Positions 29,859 to 41,094 of a DNA stretch of 64,000 bases are shown here, one piece after another. The stretch is from a phage. How positions within the stretch are numbered: the stretch's first letter is position 1; each line of letters opens with the position of its first letter. Below the pieces are notes generated by a model. It worked only from the letters and a program-made list of their open reading frames with translations. It was not told where the DNA came from and searched no databases. The translations under genes and the position numbers were made by a program. The stretch lies in sequence record PZ445511.1; one strand, 5' to 3'.

Positions 29859-30497
29859 ATGACTACTCGTATCTCTAAAACTCGTGCTCTGGCAACTATC
29901 AAGTCTCTAGAAGCTAAAATCCGTAAAGCTACTGAACAACAGCTTTTGATTGCTGTTGGTGAAGGTAAGGATAAGAACCAAGTTGTAGTTGGCGCTGCAA
30001 TCGAAGTAGATGCTCTGTCTACTCGTATTAAGACTGATTTCCAGTCTCTGTTGGATATGATGTCCCAGCGTGATCATCTGAAAGCAGCGCTGATCAAGAG
30101 CAATGCTGAAACTGTTGTAGAGATCGGTTCCCGATCTATGACTGTTGCGGAAGCAATCGAAGCTAAGCGTTCTATGGAACTCAAAGCTCAGTTGCTGGCT
30201 AACATGCGTAAGCAGTTCCATGCTGCTACTGTTAAGTTTAACACTCAGAAGGCTCAGTTTGATAACAAGTATGAGCGTTTGCAGGATACCATGGCTACCC
30301 GCGACAAGAAGACTTCTGAGGATGAAGTTAAGATGCAGCTTAACCTGCTGGAACTCAAGAACACTCCGTTCCTGATCGATCCGCTGGAGCTGGAAAAGCT
30401 GATCAAGCAACACGACGAAGAATACCAGGATTTTGCAACCAACGTTGACTTTGTTCTGTCTGAGTCCAACGCCTCTACTTTTATCGAAGTAGAGTAA
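29859..30497 (+). CDS. Hypothetical protein
   Basis: 212-aa ORF with SD aaggaag; high-expression-like codon usage. Confidence 0.6.
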   Translation: MTTRISKTRALATIKSLEAKIRKATEQQLLIAVGEGKDKNQVVVGAAIEVDALSTRIKTDFQSLLDMMSQRDHLKAALIKSNAETVVEIGSRSMTVAEAIEAKRSMELKAQLLANMRKQFHAATVKFNTQKAQFDNKYERLQDTMATRDKKTSEDEVKMQLNLLELKNTPFLIDPLELEKLIKQHDEEYQDFATNVDFVLSESNASTFIEVE

Positions 30498-30887
30498 TGA
30501 TTTAAAAGACTAGTAAATCGGTAGACGAAAGCCCAAGCATCTTACCTCGCAGCAGCGGTTGAAATACGAGGTTAAATAAGACCGCTGACCATACTATAAA
30601 GTATAATCTATTGGAGATTATCTTAATTTATTTTTCGGCAGATGTTGCATCTGTCAAAATAAAACAAGACGTCGTTGGTAGTACCAACACAACTTCAAAG
30701 ATCAACGCTCAAGTATGAAAGCTGAAAAGTTAAAAGCACTCAAACTTCTAACCTTCTAAAGCTAAAAGATGCAAAGTATTCGTTGATGATTCAAACCCTA
30801 GATCAAAGGTACATGGCTCATAAGATATGGCCTGTGGCGCCTCTAGGCTGTTTATCGGTTTACTAGTTTCACAATTTAAAAATGTAT

Positions 30888-30916
30888 TTGCTAATTAGTT
30901 TAGTTTTCTGTATAAT
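30888..30916 (+). promoter_or_regulatory. Sigma70 promoter
   Basis: ttgcta-17bp-tataat. Confidence 0.55.
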
Positions 30917-30946
30917 ATATTTTTAAATTGATGAGACGAGGCTATT

Positions 30947-31210
30947 ATGATTTTTCATATTCTTATTGATGATGTGCGTAACCTTCATGGAATGGACATT
31001 ATAATTCGAACCCCCGAAGCCGCTGTTGAGTTTCTGAATAAAACCGATACCACAGGTCATTTCGTTTATATGGATAACGATCTGGCTGTAGATGATATGG
31101 AAGGTTATCAAATTCTTCGTTTACTCCTAGAATTTGGTCAGAGACCCAAGAAAGTGGTACTAGTAACCTCGAACCCTTCGTCTAAGAGACCATGCGTAAT
31201 GATCTCTTAG
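30947..31210 (+). CDS. Hypothetical protein
   Basis: 87-aa ORF after promoter and gagacgagg RBS. Confidence 0.5.
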   Translation: MIFHILIDDVRNLHGMDIIIRTPEAAVEFLNKTDTTGHFVYMDNDLAVDDMEGYQILRLLLEFGQRPKKVVLVTSNPSSKRPCVMIS

Positions 31211-31268
31211 ACGAAGGGTATCAAGAAAGCCCTAATCGTATTGAGTACGATTGGCCGGAGTAAATAAA

Positions 31269-31718
31269 ATGAAGGCAGCTTTGCTTTTAATAGCTGCCCT
31301 AACCTATAGCTTCAATAGTCATGCTACCTACGACGCTAAACAGATTGATTGCATTGCAAAAAATGTCTATTTTGAGAGCCGAGGTGAGGGCACGAAGGGA
31401 ATGGTTGCAGTTGCACAGGTCACCAAAAACCGTGTTAACTCTGGTACATTCCCGGATTCTTACTGTAAAGTAGTATATCAGTCTAACCAGTTCTCTTGGG
31501 TATCTAAGAGACCAAAAGTTGATAAAACCGATGCGGCTTGGCAAACTGCTAAGAATGTAGCTAGAGTGATATACTACGTTGATTTACCCCATGATCCAAC
31601 ATATGGAGCGTTATACTTCCATAGTGGTAAAGAAAAGCCGTACTGGACGAAAACGTTCAAGAAAACAACTAAAATTCAAGGCCACACGTTCTATAAGCCT
31701 GTGACTAAGAAAATTTAA
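31269..31718 (+). CDS. Secreted SleB-like cell-wall hydrolase
   Basis: Signal peptide MKAALLLIAALTYSFNSHA; conserved SleB/Hydrolase_2-like block NVYFESRGEG...VTKNRV...FP...C...QFSW. Confidence 0.6.
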   Translation: MKAALLLIAALTYSFNSHATYDAKQIDCIAKNVYFESRGEGTKGMVAVAQVTKNRVNSGTFPDSYCKVVYQSNQFSWVSKRPKVDKTDAAWQTAKNVARVIYYVDLPHDPTYGALYFHSGKEKPYWTKTFKKTTKIQGHTFYKPVTKKI

Positions 31719-31726
31719 AAATTCAA

Positions 31727-31755
31727 TTGCTTTAAGCCTTAAAATTCTGTATAAT
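31727..31755 (+). promoter_or_regulatory. Sigma70 promoter
   Basis: ttgctt-17bp-tataat. Confidence 0.55.
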
Positions 31756-31787
31756 AACTGTATAAATTGATGAGAGGAAAGCGAACA

Positions 31788-31958
31788 ATGAAAACCTTAG
31801 TAATTATTGGTGTTAATACTCATGGTATTCGTACTACGAAAACAGTTAAAACTACTAACATTGCTGAAATTACTACAAATCCTAAGAAGTTTGATTTCGC
31901 CAAAGTCTCAGCAGTTATGACAGAACAATCTTTTAACCAAGCACTGGGAATTAAATAA
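31788..31958 (+). CDS. Hypothetical protein
   Basis: 56 aa from ATG after gagagg RBS. Confidence 0.45.
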   Translation: MKTLVIIGVNTHGIRTTKTVKTTNIAEITTNPKKFDFAKVSAVMTEQSFNQALGIK

Positions 31959-32401
31959 TGGAAGAGAATATTCTAGATGTTTTGCGTAGGGCTTTGCAGG
32001 AATCCAAGTTTGATGGTTCTGATAAAGAAGTAGCTAAAAGCTACCAGACCATAATCGGAGATCTTCAGCGTGTTGATAAAGACTTCATTACTTCTGAACA
32101 GTTTATATCTTATCTAAAAGCTCAACTGAAAAGCATTAATCAGACGAAAGCTAAACTTCACAGTCAAGATCTTGATAATTATAGCTTGCAGTCTGCTCAG
32201 TATGAATATATACTGAACAAATGGTTACAGCAGTATTTGCCTCCTCAGCTATCTGATTCTGAGATTCGCAAATACTTCGCAGAATTAGTTAAGCTGAATC
32301 CTGGGATTACAAAGGGTATGCTGATGAAAGCGATTAAGGAAGAGTTTCCTGGTCGTTACGACGGTGGCATTGCTGCTCAGGTTGCTGGCGAATTTAATTA
32401 A
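31958..32401 (+). CDS. GatB/YqeY-domain protein
   Basis: 147 aa; C-terminal YqeY-like block NPGITKGMLMKAIKEEFPGRYDG. Confidence 0.55.
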   Translation: MEENILDVLRRALQESKFDGSDKEVAKSYQTIIGDLQRVDKDFITSEQFISYLKAQLKSINQTKAKLHSQDLDNYSLQSAQYEYILNKWLQQYLPPQLSDSEIRKYFAELVKLNPGITKGMLMKAIKEEFPGRYDGGIAAQVAGEFN

Positions 32402-32409
32402 AAATTAAT

Positions 32410-32438
32410 TTGCTAAACGCTTCAAAATTCTGTATAAT
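32410..32438 (+). promoter_or_regulatory. Sigma70 promoter; downstream HNH ATG sits 7 nt after the -10
   Basis: ttgcta-17bp-tataat; ATG at 32445 with no Shine-Dalgarno. Confidence 0.5.
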
Positions 32439-32444
32439 ATATTC

Positions 32445-32927
32445 ATGAAAAGGAAAGAATACCCTACTAAAGAAATACTTGAAAAATATTTTGTAGCTGA
32501 TCCTGATAATGGGATACTATATAGGAAAACAAAGAAAGGTTTGAAAGAGTGTTGTGCCAATAATAAGAAATCACATCCAGATGTGGGATTTCAGGGCGAC
32601 ACCTATCAACTGCATGTCTTATTATTTATTATGTACTATGGATATAGGCCTGAAGAAGTAGATCATAAGGATACTAATCCTAGAAATAATAGGAAAAATA
32701 ATCTAAGGGACGCCTCTAGATCGCAAAATAATGCGAATAGAAACCAACAATGCAATAATACTTCTGGGTACAAAGGAGTAAGTTGGGAAGGCTCTTCCTG
32801 GAGATACCAAGTAAGACATGAAGGAAAAAATTACAGTAAAAGAGGGTTTAAAACTGCGGAAGAGGCTTTCGAGGCCTCTAAGATATTAAGAGAATCCTTA
32901 CATAAAGAATTTACTAACTTTGGTTAG
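32445..32927 (+). CDS. HNH homing endonuclease (HNH_3 plus AP2-like domain)
   Basis: 160 aa; VDHKDTNPRNN...NLR and SGYKGVSW motifs; paralog of 26830 and 37805 genes. Confidence 0.7.
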   Translation: MKRKEYPTKEILEKYFVADPDNGILYRKTKKGLKECCANNKKSHPDVGFQGDTYQLHVLLFIMYYGYRPEEVDHKDTNPRNNRKNNLRDASRSQNNANRNQQCNNTSGYKGVSWEGSSWRYQVRHEGKNYSKRGFKTAEEAFEASKILRESLHKEFTNFG

Positions 32928-32965
32928 TAATAGTGGGGTGCCGAAACCACTTATGTAACAACACT

Positions 32966-33037
32966 GCCGTCCTAGTATAATAGGTATTATTAGGGCTTCA
33001 CCGCCTGAAGATGTGGGTTCGAGTCCCACGGTCGGAA
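32966..33037 (+). other. tRNA-like element (canonical T-arm, non-canonical anticodon arm, no CCA)
   Basis: gtgggTTCGAGTcccac T-arm plus 6-of-7 acceptor pairing; 5-nt loop where anticodon loop should be. Confidence 0.3.
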
Positions 33038-33499
33038 AGAGTTGGATAACTGGTGCTTCTAATGGCGAAGCAATCGCAGGCAGTTGCGCACTGCCAAAAC
33101 CACGCGGTAGTTGGTTCCAGGCTAACCAACCACTCTTGAAAAGTATATACTACGGTTTTGCTTGTTCAGGAAGCTTCGCATCGAAAATCGGAGGTGCGAT
33201 TTTATCAGACCGCGTGGAGGACGTCTCTCCGTTAAGTGACGAAAAGTGGGACGATTCAGGTAGAGCTGGATATGGAACACCTATACATATGCGGAGTGCG
33301 CACAAAGCATATTGCGGTGGTACTAAACGAAATTAGGAGTCATGACCTGCACAAGTTTAGTATGTCATAACCGATGTACATTCAGTACAAAAACCACTGA
33401 AGCTAAGATAGATAGTCACCTTGACTTAAACTGGAAGATATTGTCTGACGGAAGGGCTGCAGAGCTTAATCTGAGGGGGCTGACCCTACCTACCGTCGG

Positions 33500-33539
33500 G
33501 TATCTTTAAGAGTTCTTACGAGAACTCTTAAAGATACCT
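33500..33539 (+). other. Perfect 18-bp inverted repeat hairpin with TACG loop
   Basis: ggtatctttaagagttct / agaactcttaaagatacc, exact complement, 18 nt upstream of the next ORF. Confidence 0.8.
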
Positions 33540-33557
33540 AAACATTAAGGAATACTG

Positions 33558-34067
33558 ATGAATCTAGGAACTACTTGTATATTTGATCACAGAGAAATGT
33601 GTTGCCCACATATTCTGTATGTAGTTCACTTTGCAGAACGTCTTACTCTGGATGAAGCTCGTGAGAAAATGGGTGGAATTACTGGATATGATTTCCGTGA
33701 AGGTGAATACTTTAGCATTGCTCTTGATTACATTGACAATACCCGTCTCTATCATCTAGTGCAGCTAGGGGAAGAAACTGATGAAGTGAAAATGGCGAAA
33801 GATACTCTACGTCGTTATCGTCCTCAGATTCTAGAACGTACACTTCGTGGAGAACGTAGTGACCCATTGTTCTTGAAGTGCTATGACGCAGATGTTAATG
33901 AGTATCTAGGACAGCAACGGTTTTACACTGAAATCAAAGAGTTTGTTCGTGAAAAATACGACGCTCTACTAATTGATTCCAGAGCACGACGTGCAGCTAA
34001 AAATGCTGAGAAATCTGCTAAAGCAGCACTAGAAAGCCAAACCAAACTGAACGAAATCGTTAAGTGA
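33558..34067 (+). CDS. Hypothetical protein
   Basis: 169-aa ORF after aaggaa RBS. Confidence 0.55.
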   Translation: MNLGTTCIFDHREMCCPHILYVVHFAERLTLDEAREKMGGITGYDFREGEYFSIALDYIDNTRLYHLVQLGEETDEVKMAKDTLRRYRPQILERTLRGERSDPLFLKCYDADVNEYLGQQRFYTEIKEFVREKYDALLIDSRARRAAKNAEKSAKAALESQTKLNEIVK

Positions 34068-34075: not shown

Positions 34076-34150
34076 CGGGGTGTAGTCTAAGGGATAGGCA
34101 GGAGTCTTCTAAATTCCTTTATGCAGGTTCGAATCCTGTCACCTCGGCCA
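34076..34150 (+). tRNA. tRNA-Arg (anticodon TCT)
   Basis: Acceptor cggggtg/cacctcg, anticodon loop cttctaa, T-arm gcaggTTCGAATcctgt, CCA encoded. Confidence 0.8.
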
Positions 34151-34176
34151 ATCTTATTACCTGTTAGGAAAATAAA

Positions 34177-34377
34177 ATGAAAACACGATATATAGTAAAA
34201 GTAGTAGGTGAACATTCGCAAGTAAATACCACGGATGTTACAGCACTAGCATTTGAGGTAGTCTCCGGTATAGTCATATTTCATAATGGGGATATCAAAG
34301 CTCCTGAATTTGCTGTGGATGCTGGCCTGTTTATTTCTGCAACTAAAGTAACTGTAGTAGCTAACTCTTCTAAATAA
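34177..34377 (+). CDS. Hypothetical protein
   Basis: 66-aa ORF just upstream of SPFH gene. Confidence 0.45.
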   Translation: MKTRYIVKVVGEHSQVNTTDVTALAFEVVSGIVIFHNGDIKAPEFAVDAGLFISATKVTVVANSSK

Positions 34378-34388
34378 TAAGGAAATAT

Positions 34389-35333
34389 ATGTTTACTAAA
34401 AACACTAAAGAACTGACTTCTGAGCAAAAAGTAATTCGTACTATTAAACGTTGGGGTGTTGGTGCTGCTATTAGTCTTGGTGCTCTTATTCTGGCTCTCA
34501 ATTCCTATACAGTTGTTCAGGATGGTACTGTTAAGACCCAAACCTTCCTGGGTAAAGTTAGCCCTAATCCTGTATTGCCAGGCTTCCATATTGTTAACCC
34601 ATTTGCTTCTTTTGATACTTTTAGTACGAAAGATATTTCCATGAAACTGGATAAACTTCAGGTTCCTAGCCAGGATAAGTTTAAGTCCACTGTTGACATT
34701 ACCGTTATGTTGCAGTTTGATGGTGCTAAAGCTCCTATGAACCGTGTTAACGCAGGTACTCAGGATCAAGCTCTGAACAAGTACGTTGAAGAGAAGATGC
34801 TGTCTACGATTCGTGAGTTTGGTAAGTCTGTACCAAAAGCACAAGATCTGTTCGACGCTAAGATTCAGGCTCAACTGCAAACCGCTATTCAGCAAGAAGT
34901 AGAAGAGTATGCGCGTCCTTATGGTTACACCGTTAAGCAAGTATTCCTTCAGGATATTACTCTGCCACCGGTAATCATGGAACAGGTACAGAACACCAAA
35001 GTTCGTGAAGAACAAGTTAACGCTGCAAAAGCTGAACTGGCTCGTGTTGAACAAGAAGCACAGCAGAAAGTTAAGCAAGCTGAGGCGGATCGTTCCGCTC
35101 GTGAAAACATGGCAGTAGCTAACGAACGTGACGCAGATGCTAAACTGTACGCAGCTAAGAAAGAAGCTGAAGCTAACGCCGCTCTGCAACGTACCATTAC
35201 TCCTGAAATGATTCGTTGGAAGCAGCTGGAAGTTGAAATGCTTCGTGCTGAAAAATACCAAGGTGGTGTACCACAGACTGTTGTCGGTACTGGCTACGAT
35301 GGTCAAATGATCATGGATATGCGTAACAAGTAA
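34389..35333 (+). CDS. SPFH/band-7 (stomatin/prohibitin-like) membrane protein
   Basis: 314 aa; N-terminal TM helix, SPFH core, long Ala/Gln/Glu coiled-coil C-terminus. Confidence 0.7.
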   Translation: MFTKNTKELTSEQKVIRTIKRWGVGAAISLGALILALNSYTVVQDGTVKTQTFLGKVSPNPVLPGFHIVNPFASFDTFSTKDISMKLDKLQVPSQDKFKSTVDITVMLQFDGAKAPMNRVNAGTQDQALNKYVEEKMLSTIREFGKSVPKAQDLFDAKIQAQLQTAIQQEVEEYARPYGYTVKQVFLQDITLPPVIMEQVQNTKVREEQVNAAKAELARVEQEAQQKVKQAEADRSARENMAVANERDADAKLYAAKKEAEANAALQRTITPEMIRWKQLEVEMLRAEKYQGGVPQTVVGTGYDGQMIMDMRNK

Positions 35334-35346
35334 TAGTTACACGTAA

Positions 35347-35383
35347 TCTTCGAACCAAGCCCGCGTTTCCTTCGAGAGCGCGG
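35347..35383 (+). terminator. Rho-independent terminator
   Basis: aagcccgcg...cgcgggctt hairpin then TTTCTATATTT. Confidence 0.6.
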
Positions 35384-35537
35384 GCTTTTCTATATTTAAG
35401 GCAAAAGAAAAAGCCCATAAGTTATTCAACTAAGGTCTTTAGTATTTAATTCTTTAGAATCATATACTATTATTGCAGCAACAACGTGCTAACCTTAAGT
35501 GCCCTGCGATTTTCCTCTAAAAAGTTAAAAAATTCGA

Positions 35538-35566
35538 TTGCTTGAATGCTAAATTCTCTGTATAAT
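35538..35566 (+). promoter_or_regulatory. Sigma70 promoter for nadR-pnuC
   Basis: ttgctt-17bp-tataat; leader identical to the one at 37402-37437. Confidence 0.6.
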
Positions 35567-35596
35567 ATATTTATAAATTTGAGAGAGGAATCAAAT

Positions 35597-36652
35597 ATGA
35601 TTAAGACTGGTCTAGTAATTGGTAAGTTCGCACCATTAACGCGTGGTCATATTAACCTAATAAACACAGCAGCAACTATGTGTGAACGAGTTATTGTTGT
35701 AGTTAGTCATGATAATCGTTGGCTGGATAAGCAGAACACACGTGATAAGGAAGTATTACAGTTAAAGAATCGACTTCGTTGGTTAGAACAAACTTACGCG
35801 GATATTGAGCACATTTCGGTAGAGTACATTATTGAAGATGATATTCCTGAATATCCGAATGGTTGGCCGGAATATGCTAGAATCCTTAATGAAAATTACG
35901 GACATTTGCCTGAGATCACCGTTTTCTCTAGCGAACTAGACTATGATGCAGAATATAAGAAATATCTGCCGAAGTTTGGTCATTATATTGTAGATTCTGA
36001 TCGGACTCGTGTTCCAATCTCAGCTACAATGATTCGTAATGATCTTATGAAGTATTGGGAGTTTCTTCCTAGCGTAGTTCGTAAAGATTACGTGCGTAAG
36101 GTTGTAATCATTGGGACTGAAAGCTCGGGAAAGACTACTTTAACAAAATACCTTGCGAAGCTATACAACACTTCGTGGGTAGAAGAATATGGTCGAACGT
36201 ATTGTGAAGTTGATCTAGTTGGTAACGAAAATCTGCTTACCAGCGAAGATTATAGTAAAATTGCGTTCAGACACAAAGAGCTAGAGTTTGAAGCAGAACG
36301 TACTGCAAATAAGATCATGTTTGTGGATACAAATGCTTTTATTACTGAGTTCTACCACAGACTTTATGAACATAGTAAGAATCCTGTGGTTACAGCAATT
36401 GCAAAAGAAGAACATTATGATTTAGTAATTGTTCTAGCGCCTACTGTCAAGTGGGTAGATGATGGTTTACGTATTAACTCCGATCGTTCAATTACTTCTG
36501 AACTATTCGAGCAGATGAAGAAAGAATTTCCAAATCAGTTCCCTGAAGGGCGTACTGTTTACATCGACTCTCCGGACTACAAAGTTCGTATGGACGAAGC
36601 AGTAAACGCAGTAGACTGGCTGATTCATCACTTTAACGTTGGAGAGTTTTAA
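35597..36652 (+). CDS. nadR: NadR-type bifunctional NMN adenylyltransferase / ribosylnicotinamide kinase
   Basis: N-terminal nucleotidyltransferase GKFAPLTRGH (HxGH-class), C-terminal P-loop GTESSGKTTL kinase; start set after gagagagg RBS. Confidence 0.75.
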   Translation: MIKTGLVIGKFAPLTRGHINLINTAATMCERVIVVVSHDNRWLDKQNTRDKEVLQLKNRLRWLEQTYADIEHISVEYIIEDDIPEYPNGWPEYARILNENYGHLPEITVFSSELDYDAEYKKYLPKFGHYIVDSDRTRVPISATMIRNDLMKYWEFLPSVVRKDYVRKVVIIGTESSGKTTLTKYLAKLYNTSWVEEYGRTYCEVDLVGNENLLTSEDYSKIAFRHKELEFEAERTANKIMFVDTNAFITEFYHRLYEHSKNPVVTAIAKEEHYDLVIVLAPTVKWVDDGLRINSDRSITSELFEQMKKEFPNQFPEGRTVYIDSPDYKVRMDEAVNAVDWLIHHFNVGEF

Positions 36653-36653
36653 T

Positions 36654-37331
36654 ATGACTAACTATCTCGTAAATGACTTTAAAAACTGGAAACCTCTGGA
36701 ATATCTGTGGCTGTTCATAGCGGTTGTCTTCATTAGTTTAGCAAACTATAATGGTACAGCTCTAGATTGGGCTACTGCAATAACCAATGTGGTTTGTGTT
36801 ATTCTGGTTGCAAAAGGACGTATTTCCAACTATATTTGGGGCTTAGTGGGTGTTCTTACATATGGTATTACAGCTTTAAACGCAGATCTTTATGGTAACG
36901 CTGCACTAAACCTGCTATACTACGTTCCTATGCAGTTTTATGGAATGTACTTATGGCATAAAAATAAGCCAAGTAATCTGCCAGATGTTCCAACTAAGGT
37001 TCTGACTAAAGCCCAAGCTCTGCTGACTCTAGGGATTCTAGCAGTAGCCACGTTAGGGTATGGTAGTTTCTTAGCTACTACGGCTGATCCATTTCCAATG
37101 TTGGATGCATTTACTGCTGTAGGTAGTGTGATCGCTATGTGGCTTATGGTTAAGCAATATGCCGAGCAGTGGCTGATCTGGATTGCTATTAACATTGGTA
37201 CTGTGTACATTTGGCTTGTAACTGCTCAATCTACAGGTGCATCTTATGCAATCCTAGCAATGTGGCTAGTATTCTTAGGTAACTCTATTATAGGAGCCTA
37301 TAAAGGATACTTTGTACGCGTTAACAAATAA
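36654..37331 (+). CDS. pnuC: PnuC-like nicotinamide riboside transporter
   Basis: Multi-helix membrane protein with conserved W/Y-rich PnuC-like blocks; coupled to nadR. Confidence 0.65.
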   Translation: MTNYLVNDFKNWKPLEYLWLFIAVVFISLANYNGTALDWATAITNVVCVILVAKGRISNYIWGLVGVLTYGITALNADLYGNAALNLLYYVPMQFYGMYLWHKNKPSNLPDVPTKVLTKAQALLTLGILAVATLGYGSFLATTADPFPMLDAFTAVGSVIAMWLMVKQYAEQWLIWIAINIGTVYIWLVTAQSTGASYAILAMWLVFLGNSIIGAYKGYFVRVNK

Positions 37332-37338
37332 AGTAGTT

Positions 37339-37364
37339 ATAGCCCTCGCTTAGAGGGCTATTAT
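37339..37364 (+). terminator. Hairpin terminator after pnuC
   Basis: atagccctc-gctta-gagggctat, weak U-tract. Confidence 0.45.
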
Positions 37365-37378
37365 ACAGAAATTTTCAC

Positions 37379-37407
37379 TTGCTTAATATAGAAAATTTCT
37401 GTATAAT
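37379..37407 (+). promoter_or_regulatory. Sigma70 promoter
   Basis: ttgctt-17bp-tataat; -10 plus leader plus RBS duplicated from nadR promoter. Confidence 0.6.
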
Positions 37408-37437
37408 ATATTTATAAATTTGAGAGAGGAATCAAAT

Positions 37438-37734
37438 ATGAAACGCATTGTACTTGCATTGACTCTAGTATCTACTTCTGTATTTGCTGCTCCACAACAG
37501 GAACTTTGTCAAGTTCAAGTTTGTAATAAGCTAGAACGATTTACTCTAGACATTTGGTCCCACATTAAAGATAATATGGGTGAACAGTGTTTTGATATTG
37601 TTCTGCCAAAAGAACAAGCTGTTCCTGGGGCTGTTCTCAGCTCAGAATCACGTTGGTGGCAAGGTTCTTCTATCAACCCAACTAAGAAGTCAGTGACACG
37701 TATCAAACAAGTATATCAGTGCAACGTTCAGTAA
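37438..37734 (+). CDS. Secreted Cys-containing protein
   Basis: Signal peptide MKRIVLALTLVSTSVFA then mature domain with 4 Cys. Confidence 0.55.
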   Translation: MKRIVLALTLVSTSVFAAPQQELCQVQVCNKLERFTLDIWSHIKDNMGEQCFDIVLPKEQAVPGAVLSSESRWWQGSSINPTKKSVTRIKQVYQCNVQ

Positions 37735-37742
37735 AATTTCAC

Positions 37743-37771
37743 TTGCTTAATGCCGAAATTTTCTGTATAAT
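37743..37771 (+). promoter_or_regulatory. Sigma70 promoter
   Basis: ttgctt-17bp-tataat. Confidence 0.55.
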
Positions 37772-37804
37772 ATATTCATAAATTTGGAAGATTAGGAACT
37801 ATTT

Positions 37805-38314
37805 ATGTTAGACTATGAGTCTATACTTTATAGATTCCGTTTAGAAGATGGTGTACTGGTGTGGAATCCGCTCTCCGGAAACTCCAGAGAGGAGAAGATA
37901 TTTAATACTAAGTTTGCCAATAAACCTGCGGGATCTTTGCACAAAAGCTCTGGGTATATCAGAGTTAACGTTGATCACCAAGATTACTTAGCTCATATCA
38001 TAGTATTTATACTATGATATGGGTATAGGCCGGAAATGGTTGATCATAAAGACTGCAATAAGTTAAATATACATCCTTTAAATTTAAGAGCAGCGGATAG
38101 TACCACTAATACTCATAATGCTAGTAAATCTTCTAGGAATACTAGCGGATTTAAGGGAGTATCCTACCACAAAGCATCTGGTCAGTGGCAGGGTAGAATA
38201 ATGTTTAAAGGTAAGTCATACTCCGCAGGGCTGCACAGTACTCCTGAAGCAGCAAATGAAGCTCTAATTCAACTGAGAGAGAAACTTCATGGGGAATATG
38301 CCCGAAATAATTAA
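37805..38314 (+). pseudogene. HNH homing endonuclease interrupted by in-frame TGA at 38015-38017
   Basis: Reading continues in the same frame across TGA: ...AHIIVFIL-stop-YGYRPEMVDHKDC..., matching the paralog sequence FIMYYGYRPEEVDHKD. Confidence 0.55.
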
Positions 38315-38403
38315 GGAAGAATAGCATAACGGTATTGCAGCAGATTGCTAATCTGTCGGTTTGAAACATAGCCTTGTGGGTTCGATTCCCACTTCTTCCG
38401 CCA
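38315..38403 (+). tRNA. tRNA-Ser (anticodon GCT), class II
   Basis: Acceptor ggaagaa/ttcttcc, anticodon loop ttgctaa, long variable arm, T-arm gtgggTTCGATTcccac, CCA. Confidence 0.75.
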
Positions 38404-38408
38404 AATTT

Positions 38409-38486
38409 GGTTCTCAAGCTCATTTGGTATGAGCCGTCGCCTCATAAGCGAAAGGTAGGTAGGTTCGAATCCTCCGGGAGCCACCA
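38409..38486 (+). tRNA. tRNA with CAT anticodon (Met or Ile2)
   Basis: Acceptor ggttctc/gggagcc (two G-U), D-arm gctc...gagc, anticodon loop ctcataa, T-loop TTCGAAT, CCA; A at position 8. Confidence 0.65.
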
Positions 38487-38635
38487 GATAACTAGGAGAC
38501 TTTATGTCACGCTTTCACGAAATTAAGCAAGAACTAGAAGAATGTATGTGTACTGAATGTTGGGGTTCTGGCACTTAATGTTCCAGTGACTGGATTCCCT
38601 GATTGGCTGCAAGGTTACGAACTCTAACAAAATTT

Positions 38636-38721
38636 GGATCTGTGGTGGAATTGGCAATACACACCATGCTTAAAACGTGGCGCTTAAATGATTGAGGGTT
38701 CGAGCCCCTCCAGATCCACCA
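38636..38721 (+). tRNA. tRNA-Leu (anticodon TAA), class II
   Basis: Acceptor ggatctg/cagatcc, anticodon loop cttaaaa, 13-nt variable arm, T-arm gagggTTCGAGCccctc, CCA. Confidence 0.75.
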
Positions 38722-38737
38722 AATTAAGGAAGTAAAA

Positions 38738-38860
38738 ATGAAATCTATTAAGAAAGCTATTCGTGAACTTATCCGTTGTCGCTTCCATAACATCAAGGCT
38801 TCAACTAATGGTACTACTTACGATCGCTATGATCCTAAGTTTGGCTTACATTCTAAATAA
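38738..38860 (+). CDS. Hypothetical small protein
   Basis: 40-aa ORF with aaggaag RBS. Confidence 0.35.
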   Translation: MKSIKKAIRELIRCRFHNIKASTNGTTYDRYDPKFGLHSK

Positions 38861-38873
38861 CTGGAGAAAACAA

Positions 38874-39080
38874 ATGGCTAATCCTGAAATTACGGCACAA
38901 CGTTTTATGCTGAAAGGAATTATTGCTGAAGCAGGCGTGACACAAGAAGTGGAAGATTTCCATAAGCAGTTCCTAAATATTCTCACTCAAGCCAAAGAGC
39001 TAGGAGAGAAAGAACATGGCGCGGCTATTATGGCAATCACATTGGTTGGGCTTGATCTGGCAGAAGAATCAGGAGTTTAA
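38874..39080 (+). CDS. Hypothetical protein
   Basis: 68 aa from ATG after ggagaaa RBS. Confidence 0.45.
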   Translation: MANPEITAQRFMLKGIIAEAGVTQEVEDFHKQFLNILTQAKELGEKEHGAAIMAITLVGLDLAEESGV

Positions 39081-39110
39081 CTTCTCCAAGCAGAAATTTT
39101 AAAAATGTAC

Positions 39111-39140
39111 TTGCTTTTTACTTAAGATTTCTGCTATAAT
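39111..39140 (+). promoter_or_regulatory. Sigma70 promoter
   Basis: ttgctt-18bp-tataat. Confidence 0.5.
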
Positions 39141-39169
39141 AGTTATATAAGTTGATGAGAGGAATCAGA

Positions 39170-39445
39170 ATGTTAAAACGTTTTGCAGCAACTGGTATTG
39201 AAAGCTCAGTATGTAAATCCTGGGGTGGTTGGGAAGGTGAGATCGAGTGGCTTTATTTCTACAATGTAGAACTTCTTCCAGAGATCAAAGCTCAATGTAT
39301 TGAGGCTGGTATGGCTCCTGATGCTACGGCTGATGTTGAAATCAGCATGAATAAGCTAGAGGGTCGAGTAGTCACTGTTACTGATGAAGGTGAAGAGGTA
39401 TTCGAACTTCCATTCACTTTGAAAGTCACTCCTTCATTTGATTAA
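39170..39445 (+). CDS. Hypothetical protein
   Basis: 91 aa from ATG after gagagg RBS. Confidence 0.5.
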   Translation: MLKRFAATGIESSVCKSWGGWEGEIEWLYFYNVELLPEIKAQCIEAGMAPDATADVEISMNKLEGRVVTVTDEGEEVFELPFTLKVTPSFD

Positions 39446-39483
39446 CTGATACAGCACTTGAGCAAGTTCTTTAAAATTTGACT

Positions 39484-39512
39484 TGCTCAAGTGCCTTAAA
39501 ACTTGATATAAT
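39484..39512 (+). promoter_or_regulatory. Sigma70 promoter for tRNA transcription unit; -35 lies inside a 13-bp inverted repeat
   Basis: ttgctc-17bp-tataat; approx 124-nt leader before tRNA-Tyr. Confidence 0.55.
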
Positions 39513-39636
39513 AGTTACCTAATTTGGAAACATATCTGAATGAGAAGTAATTAAGCGAGTTGCTTTGAGGGATAAAGTCAGGATAGCCGGAAATATTCCA
39601 CCTTGAGTTTAACCGACTTACTTTTCATTCAAATAT

Positions 39637-39717
39637 GGGGGATTGGCTCAGTGGCGACGGCGCCTGGCTGTAGACCGGGTATATCACGCGGAGGTTCGAG
39701 TCCTCCATCCCCCACCA
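39637..39717 (+). tRNA. tRNA-Tyr (anticodon GTA)
   Basis: Acceptor gggggat/atccccc, anticodon stem cctgg/ccggg with loop ctgtaga, extended variable region, T-arm ggaggTTCGAGTcctcc, CCA. Confidence 0.7.
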
Positions 39718-39725
39718 AAATTAAT

Positions 39726-39800
39726 GCACCTATCGTCTAATGGTTAGGACATCAGGATTTCAATCTGAGAATTGAACTCCGATTCTCCGTGGGTGTGCCA
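39726..39800 (+). tRNA. tRNA-Glu-like (anticodon TTC) with degenerate T-arm
   Basis: Good acceptor, D- and anticodon arms (loop atttcaa); T-arm tgaac/tccgatt/ctccg pairs poorly; CCA encoded. Confidence 0.45.
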
Positions 39801-39809
39801 ATTAATAAT

Positions 39810-39880
39810 TGGGGTACACATAGGTTGCTAGTGGGCCTCCAAAACCCATGAAAAGGTTTCGAATACCTTTACCCCTGCCA
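39810..39880 (+). tRNA. tRNA-Trp-like (anticodon CCA) with truncated D-arm
   Basis: Canonical T-arm aaggtTTCGAATacctt and CCA; anticodon loop ctccaaa with C31-A39 mismatch; U1-U72 mismatch; only 15 nt for the D region. Confidence 0.35.
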
Positions 39881-39886
39881 ATATTT

Positions 39887-39961
39887 GCACCTTTAGCTGA
39901 GATGGATTAGCGCTTGCCTGAAGAGCTTGAGAGGTTCGTTCAATTCGAACAGGGTGCACCA
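39887..39961 (+). tRNA. tRNA-Phe (anticodon GAA), weak anticodon stem
   Basis: Acceptor gcacctt/agggtgc, D-arm gctg...tagc, anticodon loop ctgaaga, T-arm gttcgTTCAATTcgaac, CCA. Confidence 0.55.
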
Positions 39962-39978
39962 ATTTGAAGGAGATGCTG

Positions 39979-40251
39979 ATGCATCCTGAAAACTTCTTTA
40001 TATACTGTACTAGTCCTTTGCTTAAACGCCGGATTAATAAAGTATATCACTACAGAGCTAGTCAACAGCCTTATGTTTATGATTCTAGTGGAGATCATAT
40101 TCCACTTGAGCAACTAGGGACTGATTATATGGTTTTGAAGCACTTTAATGAGGCGAAGATCTCTAGCGTTCATAACCGACAAAACTCTAAAACGTGGTGG
40201 CATAAGAAGCGTAAGAAAGGCATCAAATTTCTTAAAAATGTAGTTGCTTAA
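39979..40251 (+). CDS. Hypothetical protein
   Basis: Track ORF begins at TTG 39964 abutting the tRNA; ATG at 39979 has aggag at proper spacing. Confidence 0.45.
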   Translation: MHPENFFIYCTSPLLKRRINKVYHYRASQQPYVYDSSGDHIPLEQLGTDYMVLKHFNEAKISSVHNRQNSKTWWHKKRKKGIKFLKNVVA

Positions 40252-40272
40252 ATCCTTAAAGTTCTGTATAAT
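40244..40272 (+). promoter_or_regulatory. Sigma70 promoter
   Basis: ttgctt-17bp-tataat overlapping upstream stop codon. Confidence 0.55.
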
Positions 40273-40300
40273 TATTACATAAATTGAACTGGAGAACTAG

Positions 40301-40489
40301 ATGAAAGCACCTAAACCGAAATTAGTTAAGTTCGACTGCTGTGATACTGAAATCTTATTTACTAAGTTTGGTGAATTTAAGATGTGTGAATGTGGAACAT
40401 GTGGTTACGATCATGGTGATGGATATTATTGCAGAACCCTAGGGCCTTCTGAACTAATCCACTTCTCATGGCCGGAAAGTAAAGAATAA
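40301..40489 (+). CDS. Hypothetical Cys-rich small protein
   Basis: 62 aa with CC...CxC...CxxC pattern; ggagaa RBS. Confidence 0.5.
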   Translation: MKAPKPKLVKFDCCDTEILFTKFGEFKMCECGTCGYDHGDGYYCRTLGPSELIHFSWPESKE

Positions 40490-40491
40490 TA

Positions 40492-40567
40492 CGACCGTTG
40501 GCTGAATGGCTTAGGCGGAGGCCTGCAAAACCTCCTTATGTGAGTTCGAATCTCATGCGGTCGTCCA
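40492..40567 (+). tRNA. tRNA-Cys (anticodon GCA)
   Basis: Acceptor cgaccgt/gcggtcg, anticodon loop ctgcaaa (C31-A39), T-arm gtgagTTCGAATctcat, CCA. Confidence 0.65.
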
Positions 40568-41091: not shown

Positions 41092-41094
41092 ATT

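What the first reader, a model, noticed from the sequence alone, without database searches (positions are those of the whole stretch)
32928..33557. About 630-nt GC-enriched region with tRNA-like start and no convincing gene
The region begins with a tRNA-like element (perfect T-arm, aberrant anticodon arm, no CCA). It contains many local hairpins such as gttggtt/aaccaac, ggcagt/actgcc and aaaatcg/cgatttt. The only ORF (33013-33336, GTG start, no SD) starts inside the T-arm. It may be a large structured non-coding RNA, or a horizontally acquired gene with atypical composition.
Basis: partly seen in the sequence, partly recalled or inferred. Interest (0 to 1): 0.7.

Follow-up and report, generated by a model that had tools for sequence, protein, structure and literature searches.

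The report
T5-type phage "RNAX" structured RNA
This stretch is not a gene for a protein or a working tRNA: it encodes a ~610-base folded RNA, the counterpart of the "RNAX" stable RNA annotated in phage T5, and its function is still unknown.

Summary
The window is a T5-like Salmonella phage, 100% identical to phage bux. Bases 32929-33538 are the ortholog of the feature annotated in T5 (NC_005859.1) and DT571/2 as "rnaX / RNAX, stable RNA with unknown functions". In T5 it follows early promoter P16-17 and abuts tRNA-Arg(UCU).

About 525 phage records carry it, all those inspected being Demerecviridae of Enterobacterales. I found none in 5,426 E. coli genomes. No Rfam family matches except a marginal tRNA hit.

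Base-pair counts support a multi-helix fold:
- 5' domain: 87% of cells paired versus 29-41% for slid controls, with 27-30 of 48 pairs changed on both sides.
- 3' domain: 92% paired versus 35-55%.

The tRNA-like part is one arm at the tip of a covarying long-range helix. Its acceptor, D and T arms are kept. Its "anticodon" arm varies freely, and two lineages replace the whole arm. It has no CCA.

The 107-aa ORF is not conserved and shows no codon signature.

In bux, an HNH endonuclease gene and a 169-aa ORF sit exactly at the two RNA boundaries.

Function is unknown. My best guess is a trans-acting tRNA-island RNA of the GOLLD/ROOL kind. This is a new member of a barely characterised known kind.

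The parts
32410..32438 (+). Sigma-70 early promoter TTGCTA-17-TATAAT, counterpart of T5 'promoter P 16-17' that drives RNAX
   Evidence: Consensus scan gives 10/12 matches. The -10 region and downstream sequence ATTCTGTATAATATATTCAT are shared with DT571/2 upstream of RNAX. T5 annotates promoter P 16-17 immediately before rnaX.
32445..32927 (+). HNH endonuclease ORF (160 aa) lying between the promoter and the RNA. Context, not part of the RNA.
   Evidence: Pfam HNH_3 E=1.2e-11; phrog_99 HNH endonuclease E=2e-47. Absent at this position in T5 and DT571/2, where only 27 nt separate the annotated RNA start from ATAGTGGGG. Its stop codon lies 1-5 nt before the conserved RNA core.
32929..33538 (+). 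RNAX core: the whole conserved structured non-coding RNA (about 610 nt)
   Evidence: blastn finds 525 phage records. Annotated misc_RNA rnaX in DT571/2 and T5. Boundaries are the first and last blocks conserved in all lineages. z = -6.1.
32929..33106 (+). 5' domain: a four-way junction closed by P1 (32933-32936 with 33100-33103) and containing P2, the tRNA-like arm, Ha and Hb
   Evidence: Covariance model R1 scores 201.8 bits, the only full-length hit in the window. P1 covaries: GUGG/CCAC becomes ACGG/CCGU in My1 and AUGG/CCAU in YZU-L1; Proteus phage 1 reads AUGGG/CCCAU. Overall 86.8% of cells paired versus 33-41% for slid controls.
32947..32959 (+). P2 5' strand (leader). It pairs with 33041-33053 to form the long-range helix that carries the tRNA-like arm.
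   Evidence: 12 pairs, 8 with changes on both sides, 91% of cells paired (helix 2). The four inner pairs take seven different sequence combinations.
33041..33053 (+). P2 3' strand (GTTGGATAACTGG)
   Evidence: Same as above.
32960..32965 (+). Near-invariant internal-loop strand AACACU, opposite AAGA at 33037-33040, between P2 and the tRNA-like acceptor stem
   Evidence: AAGA is invariant in all 21 aligned lineages; AACACU is invariant except phiR2-01. The loop is kept in Proteus phage 1 and L042, which lack the tRNA-like arm.
32966..33036 (+). tRNA-like arm: acceptor, D and T arms plus a degenerate 'anticodon' arm. No CCA and no free 3' end.
   Evidence: ARAGORN and Rfam. Acceptor and T-arm pairs covary. 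The anticodon arm has a 6-nt loop here, a 5-nt loop in My1 and a long insertion in Klebsiella phage Shiner. The whole arm is replaced in L042 and Proteus phage 1. Rfam tRNA scores are 26.6-38.3 bits in six homologs, with no hit in two.
33054..33072 (+). Hairpin Ha (UGCUUC-UAAUGGC-GAAGCA)
   Evidence: 3 of 6 pairs change on both sides, 92% paired (helix 9).
33079..33095 (+). Hairpin Hb (GGCAGU-UGCGC-ACUGCC). Other lineages have a 60-70-nt arm here.
   Evidence: helix 10.
33104..33245 (+). Central variable region: lineage-specific hairpin modules, mosaic between phages
   Evidence: Segment alignment shows module swaps and 222-394 nt length variation. Local hairpins appear in the MFE fold.
33246..33249 (+). 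GUGG of a second 'GUGGGA' motif. Proposed to pair with CCAC at 33394-33397 and close the 3' half.
   Evidence: Read from the sequences: GUGG/CCAC in most lineages, CACGG/CCGUG in My1 and DU_PP_V. Support rests on essentially one lineage, so this is tentative.
33321..33362 (+). Helix UACUAAAC/GUUUAGUA enclosing a small hairpin. Its 8-nt loop AGUCAUGA (33338-33345) is nearly invariant, is closed by GG/CC, and contains the palindrome UCAUGA.
   Evidence: GGAGTCATGACC is unchanged in 19 of 21 representatives and occurs once in the window. The enclosing helix differs in sequence but stays complementary: UACUAAAC/GUUUAGUA in bux, UCUAGAC/GUCUAGA in My1, UAGGC/GCCUA in 1Sgal2PP and SE24. AGUCAUGA is also present in Proteus phage 1.
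33414..33426 (+). Hairpin AGUCA-CCU-UGACU
   Evidence: Conserved in Markadamsvirinae and Klebsiella phages. Duplicated in T5. Different in My1 and absent in Erwinia phage KEY.
33427..33442 (+). Conserved single-stranded linker UAAACUGGAAGAUAUU
   Evidence: AAC invariant and UGGA nearly so across lineages. Unpaired in the MFE folds of five of the eight lineages folded.
33443..33499 (+). Three-way junction arm: stem CUGACGG/CCGUCGG plus two small hairpins joined by CUUAAU
   Evidence: The stem differs but stays complementary in four lineages: CUGACGG/CCGUCGG, AGACGUUAC/GGUAUCGUCU, CAGUAG/CUACUG, UGACUAG/CUAGUCA. Pair counts, helices 4-7.
33500..33537 (+). 3'-terminal 17-bp hairpin GUAUCUUUAAGAGUUCU-UACG-AGAACUCUUAAAGAUAC with no U tract
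   Evidence: 97.6% of cells paired. 11 of 17 pairs never vary. Two of the pairs are G.U or U.G in 16 of 20 sequences (not in bux), which would be C.A mismatches on the other strand. No terminator-like site on the + strand.
33013..33336 (+). 107-aa GTG ORF. Judged not to be a gene.
33558..34067 (+). 169-aa ORF of unknown function lying between the RNA and tRNA-Arg. Context.
   Evidence: No Pfam or PHROG match. T5 and DT571/2 have no such ORF; there RNAX abuts tRNA-Arg. It is present in phage oselot and in E. coli phage 26175I.
34076..34150 (+). tRNA-Arg(UCU), the gene that follows RNAX in every RNAX-carrying lineage inspected, BF23's truncated remnant aside

Best explanation
Window 32929-33538 (+) encodes the phage bux ortholog of T5 'RNAX', a roughly 0.6-0.9-kb structured non-coding RNA of T5-like phages.

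Shown:
- It is made of RNA helices that covary. A four-way-junction 5' domain (P1, P2, Ha, Hb) carries, at the tip of the long-range helix P2, a near-invariant internal loop (AACACU/AAGA) and a tRNA-like arm.
- The 3' half carries a small hairpin with an almost invariant 8-nt loop AGUCAUGA, the hairpin AGUCA-CCU-UGACU, a conserved single-stranded stretch UAAACUGGAAGAUA, a three-way junction and a 17-bp terminal hairpin.
- The tRNA-like arm is an optional module. It keeps the acceptor/T-arm and D/T 'elbow' half of a tRNA but has no conserved anticodon loop, no CCA and no free 3' end. Some lineages replace it with a plain hairpin.

Inferred:
- The RNA is transcribed early from the sigma-70 promoter at 32410-32438, together with tRNA-Arg(UCU).
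- In T5 its 3' end would be set by RNase P cutting at the tRNA-Arg 5' end. The terminal hairpin would then block 3' exonucleases, which could explain why the RNA is 'stable'.
- In bux it must be cut out of, or persist within, a longer transcript that also carries the HNH and 169-aa ORFs.
- It acts as RNA, in trans. The invariant junction and loop sequences would be contact sites, and the tRNA-like elbow a handle for host tRNA-recognising factors.

My split of the functional possibilities:
- about 0.3: a GOLLD/ROOL-like tRNA-island RNA that assembles through loop-loop contacts;
- about 0.3: a decoy or sponge for a host tRNA-binding or defence factor;
- about 0.15: only a cis-acting processing and stability scaffold for tRNA-Arg;
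- the rest: something else.
For: Identity:
- 100% match to phage bux, and 525 phage records with similarity.
- The homologous feature is annotated misc_RNA rnaX 'stable RNA with unknown functions' in DT571/2 (636 nt) and T5 (719 nt). It sits after promoter P16-17 and abuts tRNA-Arg.
- All lineages share the ordered core blocks.
- Model R1 finds one full copy in the window at 201.8 bits. It also finds untrained homologs in Erwinia phage KEY (143 bits) and Proteus phage 1 (69 bits). True tRNAs match only the tRNA-like columns, at 15-34 bits.

Structure:
- z = -6.1.
- 5' domain: 86.8% paired versus 33-41% slid, 27 pairs changed on both sides versus 4-9, covariation score 0.35 versus at most 0.09.
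- 34 distinct sequences aligned to the model: 87.5% versus 29-39%, 30 of 48 pairs changed on both sides.
- 3' region: 91.8% versus 35-55%.
- MFE folds of most of eight lineages give the same 3' layout.
- Abundant G.U pairs on the + strand.

Not coding.

Boundaries: the HNH ORF and the 169-aa ORF abut the core exactly, and other lineages carry different insertions at the same two points.

Promoter.

Context: GOLLD and ROOL are large phage RNAs near tRNA islands, and GOLLD sometimes carries a tRNA in its linker (PMC12286853).
Against: - No expression data were available. That RNAX is a 'stable RNA' rests on the T5 and DT571/2 record annotations, whose experimental basis I could not read.
- No function is shown.
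- BF23 has lost most of RNAX together with tRNA-Arg and is still viable, so the RNA is dispensable in at least one host.
- The central third is mosaic and I could not derive a common fold for it.
- The invariant loops do not vary, so covariation cannot reveal their partners.
- In bux the RNA is embedded between two ORFs on one predicted transcript, so its ends are uncertain.
- Closure of the 3' half by GUGG/CCAC rests essentially on one lineage.
- Alignment A4 was fitted to the model, so its counts lean toward the structure.
Confidence: 0.85

Rival explanations
1. The RNA matters only in cis. It would be an elaborate 5' leader of the tRNA-Arg(UCU) precursor that guides processing or protects the transcript, with no trans-acting role.
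For: RNAX lies upstream of tRNA-Arg(UCU) in every RNAX-carrying lineage inspected: T5, DT571/2, bux, phiR2-01, Klebsiella phages, My1, Proteus phage 1 and Erwinia phage KEY. BF23 lost both together (PMC10644984 via says BF23 lacks tRNA-Arg). The terminal hairpin ends 6 nt before the tRNA in T5.
Against: None of the other 26 tRNA genes in the window has such a leader. 600-900 nt with invariant loops and junctions is far more than processing needs. ORFs of 0.5-1 kb have been inserted between the RNA and the tRNA in several lineages without eroding the RNA.
Confidence: 0.15
2. It is a working tRNA gene (tRNA-Sec, or the 'other', Ser, Leu or Pro calls seen in GenBank records) followed by meaningless spacer.
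For: ARAGORN calls tRNA-SeC(tca). The Rfam tRNA score of 33 bits is just above the gathering score of 29. Many GenBank records annotate a tRNA here.
Against: The anticodon loop has 6 nt here, 5 nt in My1 and a long insertion in Shiner, and the 'anticodon' differs between lineages. No CCA is encoded. The 3' acceptor strand runs straight into the covarying helix P2. The arm is replaced entirely in L042 and Proteus phage 1 while the rest is kept. The acceptor stem has G1.A72 and U5.U68 mismatches. The 'spacer' is conserved and covaries.
Confidence: 0.03
3. It is a protein-coding gene of foreign origin, either the 107-aa ORF 33013-33336 or the 55-aa ORF 33342-33509.
For: These ORFs exist. G+C is higher than in the flanks. 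AGGAG lies just before the ATG at 33342. phrog_19105 matches residues 2-41 of the 107-aa ORF.
Against: The ORFs are truncated, shifted or absent in homologs: 45 aa in T5, and MTLA-stop after the ATG in T5-type sequences. No Pfam match. Substitutions are spread over codon positions 1, 2 and 3 (for example 5/6/4 and 6/4/3), and 1-nt indels occur. AGGAG is only 2 nt from the ATG and forms part of the stem and loop of a conserved hairpin.
Confidence: 0.02
4. It is a DNA-level element, such as a replication or recombination site or a homing-endonuclease target, and the inverted repeats act in DNA.
For: It is flanked by an HNH endonuclease gene. The region is mosaic between phages, which suggests frequent recombination.
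Against: Helices whose strands lie 80-170 nt apart covary (P1, P2). G.U pairs are common on the + strand and would be C.A mismatches on the other strand or in a cruciform. The + strand folds better than the - strand. The T5 and DT571/2 records annotate an RNA.
Confidence: 0.02

Closest known systems
T5 RNAX (gene rnaX, T5s08; NC_005859.1 40848-41566) and DT571/2 RNAX (KM979355.1 30288-30923), annotated 'stable RNA with unknown functions'
   Same: Orthologous. Both share the ordered core blocks. The first ~243 nt are about 80% identical. The covariance model scores 186 bits on T5 against 202 bits here. Both lie downstream of the YqeY-like gene and promoter P16-17 and upstream of tRNA-Arg(UCU).
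   Different: The central third and part of the 3' arm use different hairpin modules. T5 has a duplicated AGUCACCUUGAC module, making it 719 nt. In bux an HNH gene separates the promoter from the RNA, and a 169-aa ORF separates the RNA from the tRNA. Bux is annotated only with 'tRNA-OTHER'.
GOLLD and ROOL, large 'ornate' phage and prophage RNAs
   Same: All are several hundred nucleotides long, phage-encoded and next to tRNA gene islands. All have a conserved core with variable regions and unknown function. GOLLD can carry a tRNA inside its linker (PMC12286853).
   Different: There is no sequence or covariance-model similarity: no Rfam hit at E up to 10 in the window or in eight homologous loci. 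Hosts differ (Enterobacterales, lytic T5-like phages). Oligomer formation is untested here. The tRNA part here is degenerate and embedded in a helix.
RNAs that contain a tRNA-like domain: tmRNA, bacterial Y-RNA-like YrlA, plant-virus tRNA-like structures (comparison from my own knowledge)
   Same: Each has an acceptor/T-arm/D-arm mimic without a decoding anticodon, built into a larger RNA. The 5' domain layout, a stem formed by flanking strands with a tRNA-like tip, resembles what is described for YrlA.
   Different: ARAGORN finds no tmRNA, and there is no tag ORF and no free CCA end. No Rfam family other than tRNA matched. The RNA is 5-8 times longer than YrlA. A short resemblance to the Ro-binding Y RNA sequences (GGUCCGAA, CUUGACU) has the wrong strand arrangement to form the same helix.
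The other small 'stable RNAs' of the T5 tRNA region (RNAI, RNAIII, RNAIV, RNA1, RNA2, RNA2H, RNA3), and, from memory, the two stable RNAs in the T4 tRNA cluster
   Same: All are non-tRNA stable RNAs encoded among phage tRNA genes. Several are described as tRNA-like, and their function is unknown.
   Different: They are 73-172 nt, against 600-900 nt for RNAX. Model R1 gave no full-length match to them in the T5 region searched.

Membership tests
RNAX of T5-like phages | Sequence and structure homology to the annotated T5 and DT571/2 rnaX | tested here: met
   blastn. Shared core blocks. Model R1 scores 201.8 bits in the window, 186.3 on T5 and 184.2 on DT571/2.
RNAX of T5-like phages | Position: after the early promoter (P16-17 in T5) and upstream of tRNA-Arg(UCU) | tested here: met
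   Promoter at 32410-32438. tRNA-Arg(UCU) at 34076-34150. Two ORFs are inserted at the RNA boundaries in bux.
RNAX of T5-like phages | Accumulates as a stable RNA in infected cells | not testable with these tools
   Only the record annotations say so. No paper in the held library describes it.
Functional tRNA (including tRNA-Sec) | Cloverleaf with a 7-nt anticodon loop and a conserved anticodon | tested here: not met
   The loop has 6 nt here and 5 nt in My1, with a long insertion in Shiner. The arm is the least conserved part of the element.
Functional tRNA (including tRNA-Sec) | Free 3' end with CCA, encoded or addable after processing | tested here: not met
   No CCA is encoded. The acceptor 3' strand continues through AAGA into the covarying helix P2.
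Functional tRNA (including tRNA-Sec) | Score above the Rfam tRNA gathering threshold | tested here: inconclusive
   33.0 bits against a threshold of 29 here. Homologs score 26.6-38.3 bits, and two give no hit. True tRNAs nearby score 43-69 bits.
GOLLD / ROOL | Match to the Rfam covariance models | tested here: not met
   No hit at E up to 10 in the window region or in eight homologous loci.
GOLLD / ROOL | Large phage RNA next to a tRNA island | tested here: met
   The RNA is 610 nt, and 27 tRNA genes follow at 34076-46835.
GOLLD / ROOL | Homo-oligomeric RNA-only assembly | not testable with these tools
   The only hint is an invariant loop containing the palindrome UCAUGA.
tmRNA | Split tRNA-like domain with CCA, plus a tag-peptide reading frame | tested here: not met
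   ARAGORN reports no tmRNA. No conserved ORF.
Protein-coding gene | Reading frame conserved among homologs, with a third-position substitution bias | tested here: not met
Self-splicing intron or known ribozyme | Match to Rfam intron or ribozyme models | tested here: not met
   None at E up to 10.

The most novel reading that the evidence does not exclude
RNAX may be a further, unrelated class of large 'ornate' phage RNA. It would self-assemble through its invariant palindromic loop (AGUCAUGA) and other invariant junctions into a homo-oligomer or an RNA-protein particle. That particle would display tRNA-like elbows and act on the host tRNA or translation machinery, or on tRNA-directed defence systems. 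Because it occurs in T5, a model phage of E. coli, this could be tested genetically.
Probability: 0.2. Interest if true: 0.85.

Novelty: new member of a known kind. Interest (0 to 1): 0.6.

Why it matters
Large structured phage RNAs beside tRNA islands (GOLLD, ROOL) have recently been shown to form striking RNA-only cages, yet their function is unknown. They come mostly from uncultured or hard-to-handle hosts.

RNAX is an RNA of similar size in the same genomic setting, and it sits in T5-like phages of E. coli and Salmonella. These are model systems with genetics, defence-system panels and natural deletion variants such as BF23.

It is absent from Rfam and is unannotated or mis-annotated in most genomes, as tRNA-Sec, tRNA-OTHER or short hypothetical proteins. 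The secondary-structure model, boundaries and invariant sites given here make direct experiments possible. They would also correct hundreds of phage annotations.

Tried and rejected
1. IMG/VR pattern scans added only isolate genomes already in GenBank, plus three chance matches inside coding regions.
2. MAFFT plus RNAalifold on whole-length sequences gave an unreliable fold because of large indels. I replaced it with anchored segment alignments and hand-defined helices tested by pair counts.
3. An alternative pairing, 5' GUGG with the distal CCAC and the first CCAC with the internal GUGG, was rejected. YZU-L1 (AUGG/CCAU) and Proteus phage 1 (AUGGG/CCCAU) support local closure of the 5' domain.
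4. Pairing of 5' GGGGUG with CACCUU in the AGUCACCUUGACU hairpin was rejected. It mimics the tRNA-Arg acceptor stem, but the partner is missing in My1 and KEY.
5. Pairing between the junction strand GUGYSGAA and the Ha-Hb linker showed no consistent covariation between bux and T5.
6. A T-box-like 'specifier' reading of GGAAGAUA, which contains the AGA codon of the neighbouring tRNA-Arg, was rejected. T5 has GGAAAAUA and phiR2-01 has GGAAAGUA.
7. Resemblance to the Y RNA Ro-binding sequences has the wrong strand order.
8. Enrichment of Shine-Dalgarno-like GGAG/GAGG: five sites in 610 nt by my own count from the sequence, about what chance gives. Dropped.
9. A YqeY-protein/RNAX partnership is only loosely supported. 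The YqeY-like gene lies upstream in T5, bux, phiR2-01, My1, Proteus phage 1 and KEY. Klebsiella phages have a cell-wall hydrolase there instead, and Vibrio phage Thalassa has YqeY without an RNAX-sized gap.
10. No parental tRNA was found. The best identity to any window tRNA is 72%.
11. Literature searches for RNAX, T5 stable RNA and tRNA-like Tequintavirus found nothing relevant.
Full report
**What the window is**

The finding lies in a T5-like phage genome. Bases 32928-33557 are 100% identical to Salmonella phage bux (NC_092684.1, Epseptimavirus), and 525 phage records show similarity. A run of 27 tRNA genes follows at 34076-46835. In bux the interval is annotated only with a 'tRNA-OTHER'.

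**Checking the observation**

- ARAGORN calls a 'tRNA-SeC(tca)' at 32965-33038.
- Rfam's tRNA model scores 33.0 bits at 32966-33037. The gathering score is 29, and the true tRNA-Arg next door scores 49.3.
- The T arm is perfect. The anticodon loop has six bases. The acceptor stem has two mismatches. No CCA is encoded.
- The three hairpins sit at 33110/33124, 33079/33090 and 33184/33197.
- G+C is 45.7%, against 38.9% in the flanks.
- The 107-aa GTG ORF at 33013-33336 is the longest ORF.
- The + strand folds to -201.5 kcal/mol, z = -6.1 against dinucleotide shuffles. The - strand gives z = -4.2.

**The key lead**

Two carefully annotated relatives annotate the homologous interval as an RNA gene. 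Both call it misc_RNA rnaX, 'RNAX, stable RNA with unknown functions'.
- DT571/2 (KM979355.1): 636 nt.
- T5 reference genome (NC_005859.1, locus tag T5s08): 719 nt.

In both records it follows an early promoter ('P 16-17' in T5) and ends at the first base of tRNA-Arg(UCU). T5 lists eight such 'stable RNAs' in its tRNA region, and RNAX is by far the largest. I found no paper on RNAX in the held library. I therefore could not verify the experimental basis of the word 'stable'.

**Conservation pattern**

I aligned 14 and then 21 diverse copies. They came from Tequintavirus, Epseptimavirus, Yersinia phiR2-01, Citrobacter YZU-L1, Klebsiella Sugarlandvirus, and Pectobacterium My1 and DU_PP_V. The alignments show ordered blocks that are invariant or nearly so:
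- AUAGUGGGGUG..GAA
- AACACU
- AAGA
- GAUAACU
- AAACCAC
- GGAGUCAUGACC
- AGUCACCYUGACU-UWAACUGGAA
- a terminal hairpin

Stretches of very different length and sequence separate these blocks, and the total length runs from 567 to 890 nt. This is the pattern of a structured RNA core decorated with variable hairpins. It is not the pattern of a protein gene.

**The 5' domain (32929-33106)**

From the comparisons I defined these helices.
- P1 (32933-36 with 33100-03) closes the domain.
- P2 (32947-59 with 33041-53) is formed by the leader and the sequence immediately after the tRNA-like part.
- A near-invariant asymmetric internal loop follows: AACACU opposite AAGA.
- The tRNA-like acceptor, D, 'anticodon' and T arms come next.
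- Two hairpins, Ha and Hb, complete the domain.

Pair counts on a plain MAFFT alignment of 21 sequences:

| Measure | This structure | Slid controls |
|---|---|---|
| Cells paired | 86.8% | 33-41% |
| Pairs changed on both sides | 27 | 4-9 |
| Covariation score | 0.35 | at most 0.09 |

None of the 500 shuffles reached the observed covariation score.

Specific examples:
- P1 changes from GUGG/CCAC to ACGG/CCGU in My1 and to AUGG/CCAU in YZU-L1 (via G.U in SB13).
- The four inner pairs of P2 take seven different complementary combinations.

I built a covariance model, R1, from this alignment.
- It finds exactly one full-length copy in the window, at 201.8 bits.
- It finds homologs that were not in its training set: Erwinia phage KEY at 143 bits and Proteus phage 1 at 69 bits.
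- Real tRNAs match only the tRNA-like columns, at 15-34 bits.

On the model-based alignment of 34 distinct sequences, 87.5% of cells pair versus 29-39% for slid controls, and 30 of 48 pairs change on both sides. That alignment was fitted to the structure, so it leans toward it.

**The tRNA-like part is an optional arm, not a tRNA**

- Its acceptor and T-arm pairs covary, and its D loop keeps GG, so the tRNA 'elbow' is probably preserved.
- Its anticodon arm is the least conserved piece: a 6-nt loop here, a 5-nt loop in My1 and a long insertion in Klebsiella phage Shiner.
- One T5-like genome (L042) replaces the whole arm with unrelated sequence of about 45 nt. Proteus phage 1 replaces it with a plain 8-bp hairpin. 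In both, P1, P2, the internal loop, Ha and Hb are kept.
- The acceptor 3' strand has no CCA and runs directly into P2.
- Rfam tRNA scores in homologs are 26.6-38.3 bits, and two homologs give no hit.
- The GenBank calls of tRNA-Sec, -Ser, -Leu, -Pro or -OTHER at this site are therefore best read as mis-annotations of this arm.

**The 3' half**

After a mosaic central region (33104-33245), for which I could not derive a common fold, these features recur.
- A second GUGGGA motif. I propose that it pairs with a second AACCAC (33246-49 with 33394-97). The evidence is that both become CACGG/CCGUG in My1. This rests on essentially one lineage.
- A helix enclosing a small hairpin whose 8-nt loop AGUCAUGA is closed by GG/CC (33336-33347). 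The 12-mer is unchanged in 19 of 21 representatives and also appears in the Proteus phage. The enclosing helix differs in sequence but stays complementary in three lineages.
- The hairpin AGUCA-CCU-UGACU (33414-26).
- A conserved linker UAAACUGGAAGAUA, which is unpaired in most of the per-lineage folds.
- A three-way junction whose stem is complementary in four different sequences.
- A 17-bp terminal hairpin (33500-37).

For this 3'-terminal region, 91.8% of cells pair versus 35-55% for slid controls, with 10 pairs changed on both sides. MFE folds of most of eight lineages give the same layout. In the terminal hairpin 11 of 17 pairs never vary. In most lineages it contains G.U and U.G pairs, which would be C.A mismatches on the other strand. 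No U tract follows it, and the scan found no terminator on the + strand.

**Not a protein gene**

- The 107-aa ORF is 45 aa in T5 and DT571/2 and 85 aa in SE24. No ORF of 40 aa or more starts at its position in phiR2-01 or L016.
- It has no Pfam match.
- Differences between lineages fall on codon positions 1/2/3 as 2/7/10, 5/6/4, 6/4/3 or 3/8/5, and 1-nt indels occur.
- Its only PHROG hit, phrog_19105, is a 45-residue family of unknown function that covers residues 2-41. I read it as the ORF that gene callers place over the conserved RNA 5' domain.
- The ATG inside GGAGUCAUGACC opens a 55-aa frame here. In T5-type sequences that frame stops after 2-4 codons.

**Boundaries and transcription**

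The promoter TTGCTA-17-TATAAT at 32410-32438 shares its -10 region and downstream sequence with the one in front of RNAX in DT571/2.
- In T5 only 27 nt separate the annotated RNA start from AUAGUGGGG. In bux an HNH endonuclease gene (32445-32927) fills that gap and stops 1-5 nt before the core.
- At the other end, T5 has the terminal hairpin, then UUAAAC, then tRNA-Arg. In bux a 169-aa ORF with no detectable family (33558-34067) sits between the same CUAAAC and the tRNA.
- My1, KEY and the Proteus phage instead carry an extra conserved RNA-like module upstream of the core.
- Klebsiella phages carry two small ORFs before the tRNA.

The core is thus a unit whose edges tolerate insertions while its interior blocks are preserved.

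I infer, but have not shown, three things. First, RNAX is co-transcribed with tRNA-Arg. Second, RNase P cleavage at the tRNA defines its 3' end in T5. Third, the terminal hairpin protects it from 3' exonucleases.

**Distribution**

- Hosts in the ~525 GenBank records include Salmonella, Escherichia, Klebsiella, Shigella, Citrobacter, Yersinia and Pectobacterium. Two records each are labelled Campylobacter and Listeria phage. The model-detected Erwinia and Proteus phages add to this.
- Every copy whose taxonomy I inspected is Demerecviridae.
- 5,426 complete E. coli genomes gave no match.
- IMG/VR gave nothing beyond isolate genomes.
- Vibrio phage Thalassa, also Demerecviridae, has the YqeY-like gene but no RNAX-sized gap.
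- BF23 keeps only about 100-140 nt of the 5' domain. A deletion reaching hegA removes the rest together with tRNA-Arg (PMC10644984). RNAX is therefore dispensable on laboratory E. coli.

**How it probably works**

Shown: it is a plus-strand RNA structure under selection, it is modular, and it has invariant unpaired junctions and loops. Everything else is inference.
- The invariant parts are the junction GGNGUGNNGAA/AAACC, the internal loop AACACU/AAGA, the loop AGUCAUGA and the linker AACUGGAA. They look like tertiary-contact or ligand/protein-binding sites.
- AGUCAUGA contains the palindrome UCAUGA. In principle this allows a loop-loop 'kissing' dimer. Because the loop never varies apart from one base in My1, covariation cannot test this.
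- The tRNA-like arm keeps precisely the half of a tRNA recognised by RNase P, the CCA-adding enzyme, T-loop modifiers and other elbow readers. It would serve as a handle for such factors, but lineages without it show it is not the core function.
- By size, phage origin, tRNA-island location and core-plus-variable layout, RNAX is closest in kind to GOLLD and ROOL. Those RNAs form RNA-only cages, and GOLLD sometimes carries a tRNA in its linker (PMC12286853). RNAX is not a member of either family, since no Rfam match appears at E up to 10.
- A decoy role against tRNA-directed host defences is equally plausible. The T5 tRNA region is known to counter such systems (10.1101/2023.03.15.532788).
- A purely cis role for tRNA-Arg is the main conservative rival.

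**Verdict**

The element is already named (RNAX) in two T5-type records, but it is otherwise uncharacterised, absent from Rfam, and unannotated or mis-annotated in most genomes. I rate it a new member of a known but barely studied kind. Interest is moderate to high because it offers a genetically tractable example of a large phage tRNA-island RNA.

Noticed in passing
window 32445-32927: An HNH endonuclease ORF (160 aa, HNH_3 plus a weak Arm-type DNA-binding match). It lies exactly between the RNAX promoter and the RNA core and is absent at this site in T5 and DT571/2. It looks like a mobile homing-endonuclease insertion.
   Followed up: partly
window 33558-34067: A 169-aa ORF with no Pfam or PHROG family. 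It lies between the RNAX terminal hairpin and tRNA-Arg, where T5 has only UUAAAC. It is present in several Epseptimavirus genomes.
   Followed up: partly
window 31958-32401: A YqeY-like (GatB tail, tRNA-binding type) protein gene lies just upstream (phrog_1460 'tRNA amidotransferase', Pfam YqeY 25 bits). The gene precedes RNAX in T5, phiR2-01, My1, Proteus phage 1 and Erwinia KEY. It does not in Klebsiella phages, and Vibrio phage Thalassa has it without RNAX.
   Followed up: partly
window 33013-33140; phrog_19105: PHROG family 19105 (45 residues, unknown function) matches only residues 2-41 of the 107-aa ORF. It appears to be built from spurious ORFs called over the conserved RNAX 5' domain.
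   Followed up: partly
L004 (T5) 1995-2104: T5 carries two copies of the AGUCACCUUGAC-UAAACUGGAA module 87 nt apart. This accounts for its longer RNAX (719 nt).
   Followed up: no
L040 (My1) about 16020-16300 minus strand; L058 (KEY) 3730-3860; L057 (Proteus phage 1) 3960-4150: These three phages share an extra conserved, apparently non-coding module between the promoter and the RNAX core (CAGCAGGCAGACUAUGCUG ... GAAUAGAAUCUGUGRG ... CGUAAACUCU). No copy is found in the bux window.
   Followed up: partly
L057 (Proteus phage 1) 3921-4724: An ~800-nt unannotated gap lies between the YqeY-like gene and tRNA-Arg. It contains the RNAX modules in a different order. The AGUCAUGA hairpin (about 4455) and a separate T-arm-like hairpin (about 4262) lie upstream of the P1/P2 domain (4516-4660), which has a plain hairpin instead of the tRNA-like arm.
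   Followed up: partly
L060 (BF23) 1501-1640: BF23 keeps only a remnant of the RNAX 5' domain (78.6 bits), fused to hegA. The deletion also removes tRNA-Arg and several genes present in T5.
   Followed up: partly
L056 (T5 record 30284-33949): T5 annotates seven further small 'stable RNAs' among its tRNA genes, three of them called tRNA-like. Their counterparts in the bux window were not looked for.
   Followed up: no
window 33079-33095: The loop and closing pair of hairpin Hb read UGCGCA, a palindrome containing GCGC. GCGC is also the core of the T5 DNA nick consensus (Pu-GCGC) quoted in the T5 record. The base before GCGC is not a purine here, so this is probably coincidence.
   Followed up: no
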